A stretch of DNA of 64,000 bases, taken from NCBI RefSeq assembly GCF_030028105.1, contig NC_092379.1:46052150-46116149 (forward strand), written 5' to 3'. Of this stretch, positions 45,301 to 51,300 are shown piece after piece (within the stretch, counting starts at the first letter, position 1; each line of letters opens with the position of its first letter). The DNA comes from Mobula birostris. Lineage: Eukaryota. The position numbers were made by a program.

Positions 45301-48300
45301 CGTGCTTCCCCAGAGACCCCAAGCCGTTCCCCCACTGGGCCTCCACTAAATTTCCCGACACTTCTCTGATCAGCTGAACAACTCGAGAAGGGGCTGATCC
45401 CCTGAAATGATCCCCCTGGCACTGCAAGCAATTTAGCCGCCCTCCTAGCCAGAGAAGACACACTGAAAACTCCCCCCACCCCTTTCAAATAACTAACAGC
45501 TGTCACTACGGTGTAAGTGAACCTGACAGCTTTAACACCGTCACCAGCCCGCCTACTCAAACTTTCAACCAATTCCTGTCGCTCTCCTTCAACCGAGCAC
45601 TACCTAGCAACTGAGAGATCCGTTCCGCCCACGTCTCGCACGCCTCCACCCCTCTTGGGGTGGACACTATCCCAAGTGCCAGGCGGAGCCTGCCACAGCT
45701 GGAACATTTATTCGCAGACCCTACCTCCAAATCAGACCACTCTTTCCTCTCTCTCCCAACCGCATGGGCAGCCCAGAGTGCCACCTCCAACTCGTCAATG
45801 CCAGTCTGAACTCGAACAAAGACCTCACCCACAACGCATACAGCAATCACCAGCAAATAACCCACAGAAACACACGTTACAGATTTAAACAGGGCACCCA
45901 CACATCATACCAGCAGACTCAATCCTGGACAAAGCCCACACAATGTAACCCCCTCTGGCCACCCTCAGGGTCGCTCGGCTCGCTGTCGTCTAGGGAAACA
46001 GCCTCGGCCCCGGCAAACTGGGTAATTCGTTTGTGTGAATGCTGTGTGAGGTACCCCACCCCGCCCAAATAACAGACAATACACCAGATGCAATTAAATG
46101 ATATACAGTTTATAGATATTACTGGAACTATATAATTAAAAGGGAATAAAATATAAAAGGAAAATAAAAGGCGCCACACTTATCAAAGTTCAATCTCTTC
46201 GTGCACAAAAACCGTTGGAGCTCCAGGACCTTCTTCTTCACCCTGCGCCCCCTCGGACCACCTCGACCGGCCGCCTGGGACCGACAACAGTGGTCGACCA
46301 GACGCTCCACACTAGTCCGTTAGCGGACTCACAGCGCCTGGTCCATCCTCTGTCTCGCTCTCCCGCCTTCTGCCCCCAAACCCCGCGCATACAGTATCTT
46401 CAAATACACCAAAACCATAACAACTATCCCAATTGGTTAATAGCACTATCTTATCACACTCTAAAGCAAAAACAAGCTGCTAGCGCAAACTTTCTCAGCG
46501 TTTAACACAACAAAGCCGCATTCCCTAGATTAACATAACAAAAACGCCATTTTAATTAGCCTCCGCAGTAACATAAAGGTCGAAACCCGCTTAATCCACT
46601 GTTCCTTATAAACTATAGATTCCATTAAAATTATGTATTTTATGCATATCGGCTACCCTCAGAAGTTGATCATTTATCATATTCATTGCCCATCTTCTTC
46701 TCCCTTTGACATCATTATGGAAAATGGTTCGTAGTTTGCCACGTTGTTCGAATTTGACAAATCCCTTCACAATGAACAATCTGATAGGATCTTCGTCCCT
46801 AAATCCATCTCCCTTCTGTCTTCTGATCAGAAATGACCGGATTACTACCCTAAATTAGACAGATCTGTGTTCTTTACACCGTAAGTCTTTCTGTCTAGTC
46901 GTGTTCCTCCAGTATCTTGTGTGTTACTTCATTGCTATCCACGCACATTGCATGCGAAGTCTCGAAACCACAATTAAAAATAAACTTCGGTTCAGATTTT
47001 GTTACTACGTCTGGGATCAGATTCATGCTGACAACCAGTGGTGAATAGAGGAAGCAAAATAGGGAGACAGGGATGCGTTCAGTTTGTCTGCATCATTAGG
47101 AATAATCTTTAGTTATTCATGGTGATGAACTGAATTGGTTTCAGAGTATTTTCTGTGTCATGATGACCTTCAGACTTTTATCATATTTTTGCGAAGCTCT
47201 CTCCATATAACAGAGCAAAGAGAAGTACGTTCAGTACGACGGAAGGAAGCAATGAAGATCTTTCTCTAAATTTCTATCCATACATTCACGTTAATGCGTC
47301 ATATATTTTACCGATGTAATTATGGGATATAATGCATATCATTATCCAAGCTGTAATCGTAGTAAATGTGCAGTCATTCTGCATTATGCAAATGAAGCCA
47401 GACTCTCGAAGCATATAAAGACGTTGCTCCTCCACAAGGTTGCACAAACAACCTGCGCTGATGTGTGGAACCTTCTCTGTTTAGCAGGTTTTCAGGTCGT
47501 GAAGGAACGATGAATATTTTATGTGTTTCGATATTTTTGACCTGGCTGCCAAGTAAGTGCAGTTCAGTTTTAAACCGAATAATGGTTACTATATTGCCGT
47601 TGCTTCCACAAATTTCATTTTATGTTAAATCTTGTGCTGCTTCAGATATGCGATGATTAAATATGTTTTCCTTCCTTCAGATGCCTTCAGTGTATCGGTA
47701 GAACAGACACCAAGAGAAGCAATAAAACAACCAGGCGAAACTCTGACCATCAACTGTGTTTTAAAAGATGCTAACTGTAGCCTGCATAACACATCATGGT
47801 TCATCCAAAGACCGAGTCAATCGTGTTGGGATAGGCTGTCTATTGGAGGACGATATGCGGAATCAGTCAACAACACAACAAAGTCCTTTTCCCTGCAGAT
47901 CAGCAACCTAATTGTTGAGGACACGGCCACGTATTTCTGTAATGCTCAAGACCACAGTAAAGAAGCTGAGCACACGCCAATTCAAAAAGTTTGAAAATCT
48001 TTCACGCGAGAATCTCTGACTGCTTCATTCTTATGGAAAAGAAAATTACTGAGCAGCAGTTGATTCCGCTGTAGAGCAGGCGTACATTAATACTAGGTTG
48101 GTGACGGTCACAATGCCGCTTATATCCAAGCGGACACAATTGGAGCTGCAGCGTGAGTATTCTCCCAGAGTTATGTAAATGGAGACCTTATTGCTATTGA
48201 ATCAACCACTGTGCCAAGCGCAAACCACAGTGATGAATCTTCAGGCCCCTTCATGCACAAATCGCCTCGGCAGTTATTAATGTGAAATTAATGTAAAATA

Positions 48301-51300
48301 TTCCTTTAGGGACTAAAACTGCTTTCTGACAAAGATTCTTTATCTCTGCCAGAGACTGGTACACAAAACATAGCCTTGCTCTATATGTTTGCACAATTGC
48401 AATACATATGTGGTAATCATATTAATAACTAAGCCTTGATATTATCTACCTGGCTGAGAACTATTATCGACGGGATTTAAACAAGCCAGTGCAACCATTT
48501 AATTCATGTCCCCTACCATCCTATCGTGGACGTATGGGATTATCTGACGGATTTATACGCTATTTACAACAGTGAGGATATTGTGCTCATGTGAACTGAT
48601 GTGCAACAACAGTGCCACAGTAGTCTAAGCCATAGCACAAACCTCCGAGACAGTTTTATTTTTTTAAGCTCATCTATTTGCAAAAGGGATTACAAAATAT
48701 GCCTTTACGTGCATGGATGTTACTCAACATAGTTTTTCAAACAATTTCACTTCTCCTTTAGGTTGAATTCTACCTACAGTCCCTGGTAATCAAACAGCGA
48801 AATTCCAGTTTTATTGTCATATACGCTTACAGTGCACTGAATAAATACAAGGGCGGGTGAAACTGAAGGAAATGGAATATATTGGTCAGCCCTTCGTTCC
48901 TGGATTATTGTGGAAAGCCTCCGTCTACATTTCAGTTTTAATGATTACTTTTTGAATTGAGCTGAATAGGAAGTTCATTATTGTGTGCAAATACCTTAAC
49001 GGAACTGGTACAAAGCTGACTGTGAAACCTGGTAAGTGATATCTTTTATTACATTTTGAGCAAGCACGTACTTTTCCCCGAGGTCAAGTATAATTATATT
49101 CTCGTTTAAATGATGCAAACCAAAAAGGGCAGTATGATATTTTTTTGGAGTATAAGCATTTCACTGAGACACCCCAGAAGAATTTAAGTATACGCATTTC
49201 TCCTCCCAAGATAATACCTTCGCTCGTTTAAAAAAAAAACGAAAATTGGAGTATTTTTACAAATTGAAGTGTACAAATTACCTGCTACGCCCCACCCCCG
49301 TCCGACGGTTACTTTAAAATATTATCTGCTGTATTGATATAAGTGCGAGGTCCTCATATCTTGGCATATTTGAGTATGGATTTACTCTCCAATGGTCGCA
49401 GACCCAAGCAGTATAGAAGTTTGAAGATGAAATAGGTTTCAGTTCAGAAGGGATCGATAGCTTAATAACCTGATACTTCGAGGGGGCTGTTAGAACATAT
49501 ACTCATTGCGAAAACAACTTGTCATTTAGCTGTAATAGAAGAAAAAGTGTCTTCTATTTAGAAACACATATCATTCTCTAACAAATCCATACATTTAGAA
49601 GATCAGGTTGAAACAAATTTTATGTTGTTCGAATCGTTGGACTTATATAATTTTGGTTATATTTTAGTGTCAATTGCCAGAGTATTAAGGGAGGGCAGAG
49701 GTAGGCTAAAGGTCTGTGTGCAAGGCAGGAAAAGATACTGAATGAATGTCAACATAATCAATATCGTCTTTGAAAGCGGAGCACAATAATATTAAGTCTG
49801 TACCATCTCGCTGAATGCTTTAGCCAATTGCCACGGCGCTATATTTAATTAAATGCTACACTCCAGATCTTAATGAATGACATTCCATATGTAGATTATA
49901 AAGGTTTACAGTGTTAATCAGACTGTTTTGTGGTACAAAAGCTACAACTGTCGTCATTGAAGCAGTATGCTAAAATATAGGTTGCAATGGAAACATTGCT
50001 GCGAAACGGGTTTTAATTTTCATCAGTCAATTGAATGATAGCGTCTACAAGTAGATCCTTCCCAAAGCAAACTCAAATGAAAGCAAACCTCTGACACTAT
50101 TATGGGACCGACAAACGTCAGGGAATTAATTTGCAAAATTATCCATCGTTCGTCCAATTTACATGACCTTATTGCTATTTGTTTGCTTCACCTTTCTTAG
50201 TTTTAAACATGCTGTAAAGCTCCTTTGTCTGAGCTTAGTCGTGTTTAAAAGTCCTCTGAATCTCGTTGTTTATGGAGTTTTTTCGGAACCCAGTCCAATT
50301 CCACTTGCGTTTTTTTTTTGTTAAATAGGCAAGTATTTAACATCGTCTTTGTTCGTATATAGCGCTGTGGTGTATTACTCCGTCTTCCCGGCTAATGTTC
50401 TCCCAAATTAATGTAGACCTCCCCTTGCGTTTTGATCCTTTTGGGAAAGGAATTTCTCAGACGTCAAGCAGAGCTAATTCCATGCACTTAACTGAGAAAC
50501 TGAGAAGGAATCGACATTTGAGAAGAGTACCAGAAGGTGAATGTATTAAATACTTAGAAACACCATCAACACCCTTTCTATTTTATTACGCTACTTGCAA
50601 TCGAAGGGAAGCTGTGTGATACCAGCAGCTCTTCTTCAGTCCAATAAAATGCATTGGACTACTCTTTCGTCAGTCGTCAGTCGTCAGTCTTATTATAAGC
50701 TCTATATCTCCCCTCCTTCTGTAATATGCGATGACCGTTTTCTTTGTATGTCCGCAACGATCTCTGCTTTAAAAAGTATGCCAATTTTCTCATTCTGCAT
50801 TCGAATAATTTCAACATTCCCAATACCATGTGAAAGAAAATAAATCTTTCCCTAATCTCTGTCGTAAAGGGGGAATCCCATATTTATGCTCCATTTCACT
50901 CCCACATACGAAAGTCAATGCAATTGGTGAGCTAACTGGCAAATGAATATTGTCTACAGTGCTTAGAACAATGATAGAATTTGATGCAATTGATGTGGTT
51001 GTGGGGGCGAATAAACTAAAATGGATTAATGTAGAATTATTGCAACTCACCTAGATAACCCTAGCCTAATCATAGGACGATTTACTAACCGTTCTGACTT
51101 TGGACGATAGAATTAAATGACAGTACCTGGGAAACCCACACGGTCATTGGGAGAACAAGCAAGTTCCTTAGAGACGGCGTCAGAATTGAACTTTGTACAC
51201 TGACAATTCGAGCTGTGACAGTGTTCCGCTAACGGCTAGGCTTCTCTGTGTCTTGCACTTCTCCATAACTCATTCTAAATATCCATGTTGGTTCAGTCCA

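What the first reader, a model, noticed from the sequence alone, without database searches (positions are those of the whole stretch)
47773..49006. Paratope loaded with germline N-glycosylation sequons
Seen: N-C-S (47773) and N-T-S (47788) in CDR1; overlapping N-N-T and N-T-T (47869-47880) in HV4; N-N-S in D2 frame 2; N-G-T (48998) in J at the CDR3/FR4 border. That is up to six sequons on or next to antigen-contact loops; the VNARs I recall have few or none. Inference: a glycan-decorated V domain could recognise lectins, act at mucosal surfaces, be masked until hypermutation removes sequons, or gain solubility from the glycans.
Basis: partly seen in the sequence, partly recalled or inferred. 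Interest (0 to 1): 0.68.

Follow-up and report, generated by a model that had tools for sequence, protein, structure and literature searches.

The report
Sequon-rich germline shark-type antibody V gene
This is an intact-looking germline gene for a single-domain (IgNAR) antibody of a cartilaginous fish whose antigen-binding loops carry unusually many sugar-attachment motifs, a real but modest oddity whose function cannot be read from sequence.

Summary
Window 47.4-58.1 kb (+) is one unrearranged IgNAR mini-cluster: promoter, leader, V exon, D1, D2, J and three constant exons. All 30 best PDB matches of the V exon are VNARs. The three C exons match nurse-shark IgNAR constant domains.

Every sequon sits at the stated coordinates: NCS and NTS in CDR1, overlapping NNT/NTT in HV4, NNS in one of three D2 frames, NGT at the J start.

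Enrichment is modest. Residue shuffles of the V exon give a mean of 1.41 sequons, with P(>=4)=0.029. Seven PDB VNARs seen in alignment have 0-1 sequon each and none in CDR1 or HV4. The pattern comes mainly from Asn (AAC codons) concentrated in hotspot-rich loops. C1 and C2 also carry sequons that nurse shark lacks, so the excess is not paratope-only.

Occupancy and function cannot be tested here. My best guess is partial glycan capping of the CDR1/HV4 flank; a neutral by-product of loop codon composition is nearly as likely.

Batoid VNAR sequences could not be consulted.

The parts
47386..47419 (+). Ig-type promoter: octamer ATGCAAAT (47386-47393) and TATAAA (47414-47419), about 90 nt before the leader ATG
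   Evidence: Read. The octamer count in the window is no more than chance (4 found, 4.14 expected). Only its position and strand speak for it.
47510..47552 (+). Leader exon (MNILCVSIFLTWLP plus the first base of a split codon), donor GT at 47553
47681..47952 (+). VNAR V exon (acceptor AG 47679-47680). Open frame of 90 codons from 47683. Canonical Cys at exon residues 25 and 86, extra Cys at 47776-47778 (CDR1) and 47824-47826 (HV2).
   Evidence: PDB: the best 30 hits are all VNARs, best 3.5e-30. Pfam V-set 1e-08.
47773..47796 (+). CDR1 sequons N-C-S (47773-47781) and N-T-S (47788-47796)
   Evidence: Loop position from the alignments.
47869..47880 (+). HV4 overlapping sequons N-N-T and N-T-T, encoded by AAC AAC ACA ACA
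47953..47990 (+). V recombination signal: CACAGTA, 22-nt spacer, TCAAAAAGT
   Evidence: score 12 of 16; 12 of 1048 CAC sites on the + strand of the window score 12 or more
48186..48263 (+). D1 (48214-48225) with a 5' signal (nonamer 48186-48194, 12-nt spacer, CACTGTG 48207-48213) and a 3' signal (CACAGTG 48226-48232, 22-nt spacer, nonamer)
   Evidence: Frames PSAN / QAQ / KRK.
48576..48643 (+). D2 (48604-48615; frames QQQC / NNS / TTV) with a 5' signal (GGATATTGT, 12-nt spacer, TGATGTG) and a 3' signal (CACAGTA 48616-48622, 12-nt spacer, GCACAAACC)
   Evidence: The 5' heptamer is weak (4 of 7), so the 5' border of D2 is the least certain point.
48947..49031 (+). J: nonamer 48947-48955, 23-nt spacer, heptamer TATTGTG 48979-48985, coding 48986-49031 (productive frame C-K-Y-L-N-G-T-G-T-K-L-T-V-K-P), N-G-T at 48998-49006, donor GT at 49032
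54315..54635 (+). IgNAR C1 exon, in phase with J; sequon N-I-T at 54335-54343
   Evidence: PDB 4q97 'Novel antigen receptor' 3e-40.
55631..56071 (+). Open frame holding the second constant exon (exact borders not set); sequons N-K-T at 55724 and N-Q-S at 55934
   Evidence: Pfam C1-set 6.9e-12. PDB 4q9b 3.5e-31..
57669..58088 (+). Open frame holding the third constant exon (exact borders not set); sequons N-A-T at 57834 and N-I-S at 57981
   Evidence: Pfam C1-set 1.8e-20. PDB 4q9c 3.8e-37..

Best explanation
Shown. The region is an unrearranged, apparently functional IgNAR heavy-chain mini-cluster of a cartilaginous fish, laid out as promoter, leader, V, D1, D2, J, then C1-C3. Its germline V exon encodes N-X-S/T motifs at two places in CDR1 and a double motif in HV4. 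Its J encodes one more directly before the G-x-G of framework 4.

Inferred. IgNAR is made in the ER, none of the motifs has Pro at X or at +3, and all lie in surface loops. At least some are therefore likely to receive N-glycans in every naive receptor from this cluster.

Inferred, most likely consequence. A glycan cap forms on the CDR1/HV4 flank and at the base of CDR3. It would keep this light-chain-less domain soluble and protected. It would also leave the long CDR3 as the main naked contact surface. CDR3 could be tethered through the extra Cys of CDR1 and HV2 to Cys supplied by D2 frame 1 and by the first J codon. Somatic mutation can later keep or delete individual sites.

The excess of sequons seems to belong to the whole chain (also C1 and C2), not to the paratope alone.
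For: Identity. V exon to VNARs: the 30 best PDB hits are all VNARs, best 3.5e-30. The CDR1-HV4 span alone matches exactly 30 PDB sequences, all VNARs. C exons match nurse-shark IgNAR entries 4q97 at 3e-40, 4q9b at 3.5e-31 and 4q9c at 3.8e-37.

Intactness. The frame is open, leader/V and J/C1 splice sites are in phase, and the signals pair as 23 | 12-D1-23 | 12-D2-12 | 23-J.

Sequons..

Rarity. Seven PDB VNARs have 0-1 sequon each and none in CDR1/HV4. The shuffle gives P(>=4)=0.029.

Origin of each motif. Each arises where relatives have the same S/T but no Asn, or the conserved HV4 Asn but no S/T at +2 (alignments). That implies several independent changes all pointing the same way.

Whole chain. 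C1 has N-I-T and C2 has N-K-T and N-Q-S, where the aligned nurse-shark residues form no sequon.

Context. In human naive repertoires germline V sequons occur only in six V segments (passage of PMC7040075).
Against: There are no expression, occupancy or repertoire data. Statistical support is weak once composition is allowed for: P=0.14 if NNT/NTT count as one, and local shuffles give 0.05 and 0.21. The finding was also picked post hoc.

N-C-S has a disulfide-forming Cys at X, N28 and N33 lie five residues apart, and N60/N61 are adjacent, so full occupancy is unlikely (established knowledge of oligosaccharyltransferase, not tested).

Only 7 of 30 PDB VNARs were visible, and no sequence known to me as batoid could be compared. 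The third constant exon has the same number of sequons as its nurse-shark match (2 and 2). The single-sequence AlphaFold model was too poor (pLDDT 48.9) to show exposure.
Confidence: 0.45

Rival explanations
1. Neutral by-product. Hypervariable loops of Ig genes are built from AID-hotspot codons (AAC, AGC, ACA). Asn plus Ser/Thr richness then yields sequons by chance, and any glycans have no selected role, or the sites are poorly used.
For: Six of 7 Asn codons are AAC. WRCH/DGYW density is 1.0 per codon in CDR1 and 0.5 in HV4, against 0.38 for the exon. HV4 is a near-repeat AAC AAC ACA ACA. Given local composition, two sequons in HV4 arise in 21% of shuffles and two in CDR1 in 5%. The whole-exon shuffle gives P=0.029 only.
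Against: The seven comparators share the hotspot-rich loop design, yet none has a CDR1 or HV4 sequon. J, C1 and C2 of the same gene also gained sequons relative to nurse shark.
Confidence: 0.35
2. Lectin-ligand receptor. Glycans in the binding loops (possibly high-mannose because poorly accessible) engage host or microbial lectins. This gives antigen-independent receptor signalling or innate-like recognition, as described for follicular-lymphoma B-cell receptors.
For: Analogy only. Passages of PMC7040075 report CDR glycans of high-mannose type binding DC-SIGN and triggering BCR signalling. This cluster has only two D elements, which would restrict CDR3 diversity, as in the neonatal type III described in PMC4622739.
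Against: There is no evidence on glycan type, lectins or expression stage. The type III hallmark, a Trp next to the CDR1 Cys, is absent.
Confidence: 0.07
3. Unused or decaying cluster. The gene is not expressed, so its sequons are irrelevant.
For: Only two D elements were found, where described clusters have three. The D2 5' heptamer is weak. No further constant, secretory or membrane exon was found in the 6 kb after the third C exon. Retroelements surround the cluster.
Against: All exons seen are open with in-phase splice sites. V, D1 3', D2 3' and J signals score in the top ~1-4% of CAC sites. An octamer and TATA lie in the right place. The missing exons may simply lie beyond base 64000.
Confidence: 0.1
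4. The V belongs to a NAR-TcR (a T-cell receptor delta chain with an extra NAR V domain), not to IgNAR.
For: The J end (K-L-T-V-K-P) looks T-cell-receptor-like from recall. NARTCR uses a V of the same family (passage of PMC12227049).
Against: The first Ig exon after J is a C1-set domain in phase with J and is the best PDB match to nurse-shark IgNAR C1 (3e-40). No second V-like sequence exists in the window (tblastn).
Confidence: 0.02

Closest known systems
IgNAR mini-clusters of sharks (nurse shark types I-III; bamboo shark, dogfish)
   Same: Single VNAR-type V lacking a CDR2, D elements flanked by 12/23 signals, one J and IgNAR constant exons. The CDR1 Cys is in the same column as in Cys-bearing PDB VNARs. 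Cluster layout matches the passages of PMC4622739 and PMC5192425.
   Different: Two recognisable D elements instead of three. An extra Cys in HV2 and a Cys as the first J codon. Asn before the G-x-G of J. Four sequons in CDR1/HV4, against 0-1 elsewhere in the seven VNARs inspected.
Human germline V segments with an N-glycosylation motif (IGHV4-34, IGHV1-8 and four others)
   Same: A sequon encoded in the germline V, so present in naive receptors and open to loss or replacement by somatic mutation (passages of PMC7040075).
   Different: The passage names only six such V segments. That each carries a single motif is my recollection, not something I saw in the passage. Here one V has motifs at three loop sites, plus one in J, on a domain that is the whole paratope.
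Somatically acquired CDR glycans of follicular lymphoma receptors
   Same: Glycans placed in antigen-binding loops; proposed lectin engagement.
   Different: Those are acquired by mutation in a tumour. Here they are germline, and nothing is known of glycan type.

Membership tests
IgNAR heavy-chain cluster | V exon of VNAR type | tested here: met
   The 30 best PDB hits are all VNARs (best 3.5e-30). The CDR1-HV4 span hits only VNARs, 30 of 30.
IgNAR heavy-chain cluster | IgNAR constant domains downstream, spliced in phase to J | tested here: met
   4q97 3e-40, 4q9b 3.5e-31, 4q9c 3.8e-37. J donor and C1 acceptor are in phase.
IgNAR heavy-chain cluster | One V, three D, one J with compatible recombination signals | tested here: inconclusive
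   The signals are compatible, but only two D elements with paired signals were found by my consensus scan. A third with degenerate signals cannot be excluded.
IgNAR heavy-chain cluster | Five constant domains plus secretory and membrane exons | not testable with these tools
   Three C exons lie in the window. None was found from 58.1 to 64.0 kb, and the window ends there.
VNAR type II | One extra Cys in CDR1 paired with one in CDR3, and no framework Cys pair | tested here: inconclusive
   The CDR1 Cys is present (47776). Cys is available from D2 frame 1 and from the first J codon. A further Cys in HV2 (47824) is not part of the definition given in PMC4622739.
VNAR type I | Extra Cys in framework 2 (next to the conserved Trp) and in framework 4 | tested here: not met
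   Ser precedes the conserved Trp, and there is no Cys after the G-x-G of J.
VNAR type III | Conserved Trp next to the CDR1 Cys; D1-D2 fused in nurse shark | tested here: not met
   CDR1 reads N-C-S, with no adjacent Trp. There are two D elements, but they are separate with their own signals.
NAR-TcR | A supporting TCR delta V exon follows the NAR J | tested here: not met
   The next Ig exon is IgNAR C1. There is no second V in the window.
N-glycosylated variable domain | N-X-S/T with X not Pro in a secreted or ER-translocated domain | tested here: met
   a leader exon is present.
N-glycosylated variable domain | Sites actually occupied by glycan | not testable with these tools
   Needs protein chemistry.

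The most novel reading that the evidence does not exclude
A previously undescribed VNAR type. It would be a germline-encoded, multiply glycosylated single-domain paratope in which CDR1 and HV4 are glycan-capped. Four sites of roughly 2 kDa each on a roughly 12 kDa domain would be a large share of its mass. CDR3, built from only two D elements, would be pinned by two non-canonical disulfides: CDR1 Cys and HV2 Cys to Cys from D2 and from the first J codon. Such a receptor would bind through a bare, rigid CDR3 finger, or act through its own glycans.
Probability: 0.2. Interest if true: 0.65.

Novelty: new variant of a known kind. Interest (0 to 1): 0.4.

Why it matters
If the sites are occupied and conserved, this would be a natural example of a heavily glycosylated single-domain antibody paratope. 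That bears on three things: how light-chain-less V domains stay soluble, how germline glycans shape a naive repertoire, and the engineering of VNAR scaffolds, where sequons are usually designed out (passage of PMC12907318). If the sites are neutral, the locus is simply a well-preserved IgNAR cluster with a slightly unusual segment and cysteine layout.

Tried and rejected
Structure. AlphaFold2 on the V exon alone, single sequence, gave mean pLDDT 48.9 and pTM 0.32. That is too poor to use, so no fold search was run on it.

ESM Atlas. It returned only generic V-set clusters.

PDB sequences. get_proteins does not accept PDB sequence ids (error). Only the alignments printed by the PDB search could be read, which is 7 of the 30 VNARs.

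Octamer. Its count is not above chance (4 found, 4.14 expected).

Literature.
- One search was wasted on terms that did not require 'IgNAR'.
- (IgNAR, N-glycosylation, VNAR) found 14 papers and listed 13. One search (VNAR, glycosylation site, CDR1) found 16. One search (NARTCR / NAR-TcR / glycosylation) found 6.
- I read only passages of PMC8692893, PMC12907318, PMC9502636 and PMC7726437. None discusses germline sequons in VNAR loops.
- The one paper on a skate VNAR repertoire (Front Mar Sci 2023, seen only as a reference entry) is not held. A review by PMC id was not held either.
- The species of PDB entry 8ht3, the closest VNAR, could not be learned.

Closed or unavailable. Other germline VNAR genes therefore stayed unchecked. 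Supplements of papers were not consulted.

Rejected. A longer reading of D2 (48586-48615; one frame gives two Cys plus NNS) was considered. It was set aside because its 5' signal has a poor nonamer. NAR-TcR identity was rejected.
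Full report
WHAT IS THERE

The finding lies inside a single unrearranged immunoglobulin mini-cluster on the + strand. Its parts, read, are:
- an octamer ATGCAAAT at 47386-47393 and TATAAA at 47414-47419;
- a leader exon from the ATG at 47510 to 47552, with donor GT at 47553;
- a V exon at 47681-47952 after an AG acceptor, open for 90 codons from 47683.

The V translation matches VNAR domains. The 30 best distinct PDB sequences are all VNAR entries, the best being 8ht3 at 3.5e-30. The 54-residue CDR1-to-HV4 span matches exactly 30 PDB sequences at E<=0.001, all VNARs. 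Pfam gives V-set at 1e-08.

The window has no N and only this one V-like sequence. I do not take it for human. The species cannot be named with the tools at hand.

SEGMENTS AND SIGNALS

A consensus scan finds these recombination signals:
- V: CACAGTA, 22-nt spacer, nonamer.
- D1 (48214-48225): perfect CACTGTG and CACAGTG heptamers, with a 12-nt spacer on the 5' side and a 22-24-nt spacer on the 3' side.
- D2 (48604-48615): on the 3' side, CACAGTA, 12-nt spacer, GCACAAACC. On the 5' side, a good nonamer (7 of 9), a 12-nt spacer and a weak heptamer.
- J: nonamer, 23-nt spacer, TATTGTG, ending at 48985.

The order 23 | 12-D1-23 | 12-D2-12 | 23-J obeys the 12/23 rule throughout.

Signals scoring 12 or more of 16 are rare: 12 of 1048 CAC sites on the + strand of the window. 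I found no third D with paired signals. Described IgNAR clusters have three (passages of PMC4622739), or 'up to three' (PMC5192425).

J coding runs 48986-49031. Its frame is fixed by the donor at 49032 and by the C1 acceptor before 54315.

CONSTANT REGION

Three C1-set exons follow (Pfam). Each has as its best IgNAR match a different nurse-shark entry named 'Novel antigen receptor':

| Exon | PDB entry | E-value |
|---|---|---|
| First | 4q97 | 3e-40 |
| Second | 4q9b | 3.5e-31 |
| Third | 4q9c | 3.8e-37 |

For the third exon, two multi-domain chains scored higher overall because several of their domains add up.

This settles IgNAR against NAR-TcR. No further C, secretory or membrane exon is seen up to base 64000.

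I did not build, translate, search or fold a joined leader-V, V-D-J or J-C sequence. Statements about the assembled domain are therefore inferences from the separate pieces.

THE SEQUONS

| Motif | Coordinates | Location |
|---|---|---|
| N-C-S | 47773 | CDR1 |
| N-T-S | 47788 | CDR1 |
| N-N-T / N-T-T | 47869-47880 | HV4 |
| N-N-S | frame 2 of D2 | CDR3 |
| N-G-T | 48998-49006 | J |

None has Pro at X or directly after the motif.

In the PDB alignments the CDR1 Cys lies in the same column as the Cys of four of the seven VNARs seen. Two of those read x-C-S, so Asn at one position makes the first sequon. The second sequon needs only Asn in front of a T-S that one relative also has. In HV4 the Asn of 'V-N' is present in all seven, and the sequons come from Thr two and three places on.

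In J, the Asn sits directly before the G-x-G. That position is not always aromatic in VNARs: a stray alignment shows Glu there.

IS IT MORE THAN CHANCE?

Whole-exon residue shuffles (200,000) give a mean of 1.41 sequons, with P(>=4)=0.029 and P(>=3)=0.14.

Requiring all four inside the 14 loop positions gives 1.7e-5. That mostly restates that Asn is concentrated there: 4 in 14 positions against 3 in 76. Shuffling only within each loop neighbourhood gives 0.05 for CDR1 and 0.21 for HV4.

Against relatives:
- Five VNARs aligned over the whole V part carry 0, 1, 1, 1 and 0 sequons: two at the N-terminus of framework 1 and one in HV2.
- Over the CDR1-HV4 span, 1 of 7 carries any, and 0 of 7 has one in CDR1 or HV4.

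The excess is real but modest. It rests on few comparators, and none of them is known to me to be a batoid.

WHERE THE PATTERN COMES FROM

Six of seven Asn codons are AAC, itself a WRC hotspot. Hotspot density is 1.0 per codon in CDR1 and 0.5 in HV4, against 0.38 for the exon. HV4 is the near-repeat AAC AAC ACA ACA. A loop design rich in Asn, Ser and Thr codons is therefore the proximate cause.

The usual C-to-T change at AAC is silent. Only 13-15 of 27 single-base changes remove any one sequon. The sites are thus no more 'poised for removal' than any motif.

NOT ONLY THE PARATOPE

C1 begins with N-I-T, and the second C exon has N-K-T and N-Q-S. The aligned nurse-shark residues form no sequon at any of these places. 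The third C exon has two sequons, like its nurse-shark match, and one is at the same place. The chain as a whole looks somewhat more sequon-rich than the nurse-shark reference.

HOW IT MOST LIKELY WORKS

Shown:
- gene identity, intact reading frames and signals;
- motif positions.

Inferred:
- Co-translational glycosylation of at least some sites in the ER.
- A glycan cap on the CDR1/HV4 flank and at the CDR3 base. This would aid solubility and protection and leave CDR3 as the main contact.
- Tethering of CDR3 by the extra Cys of CDR1 and HV2 to Cys from D2 frame 1 and from the first J codon.

I give this 0.45. A neutral by-product of loop codon composition gets 0.35, an unused cluster 0.1, a lectin-ligand role 0.07, and NAR-TcR 0.02.

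COMPARISON WITH WHAT IS KNOWN

By V and C homology and layout, this is a member of the IgNAR family. It does not fit types I or III as defined in PMC4622739. It fits type II only loosely.

Germline V-region sequons are known in man, in six V segments (PMC7040075, passage). CDR glycans that engage lectins are known from follicular lymphoma (same call).

In the searches, and in the passages I read, I saw nothing on germline sequons in VNAR loops. The skate repertoire paper that might hold it was not available, and supplements were closed.

VERDICT

I file it as a new variant of a known kind, of moderate interest.

Noticed in passing
window 47776-47778, 47824-47826, 48604-48615, 48986-48988: The V exon has two non-canonical Cys (CDR1 and HV2). 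The only germline Cys codons able to pair with them are the last codon of D2 frame 1 and the first codon of J in its productive frame. This four-Cys layout fits none of the VNAR types described in PMC4622739.
   Followed up: partly
window 47953-48985: Only two D elements with paired recombination signals were found, where described IgNAR clusters have three. The stretch 48575-48603 before D2 holds several heptamer-like GTG ends, and a longer reading would encode two Cys. It may be a remnant of a further D.
   Followed up: partly
window 48998-49031: The J has Asn where many V domains have an aromatic residue before G-x-G, and it ends K-L-T-V-K-P. From recall, that ending looks more like T-cell-receptor or lambda J segments than like shark IgNAR J.
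   Followed up: no
window 54335-54343, 55724-55732, 55934-55942: The first two constant exons carry sequons at places where the aligned nurse-shark IgNAR domains have none.
   Followed up: partly
window 58089-64000: No further constant, secretory-tail or membrane exon was found in the 6 kb after the third C exon. They may lie beyond the window, or behind a large intron.
   Followed up: partly
window 14046-18876 (- strand): A long LINE-type retrotransposon with endonuclease (Exo_endo_phos 2.9e-11), reverse transcriptase (RVT_1 9.7e-45) and a weak L1 ORF1-like match, in large open frames.
   Followed up: partly
window 36371-37418 (+) and 36000-46000: An LTR-retroelement-type RT/RNase H fragment (RT_RNaseH_2 8.6e-21) lies inside a G+C-rich block (0.49-0.53, against about 0.36-0.45 elsewhere). 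A 533-codon open frame at 43556-45157 (-) has no Pfam match.
   Followed up: partly
window about 42300-42400: A dinucleotide (CA/TG-type) microsatellite, seen as C-V and H-T repeats in the ORF translations.
   Followed up: no
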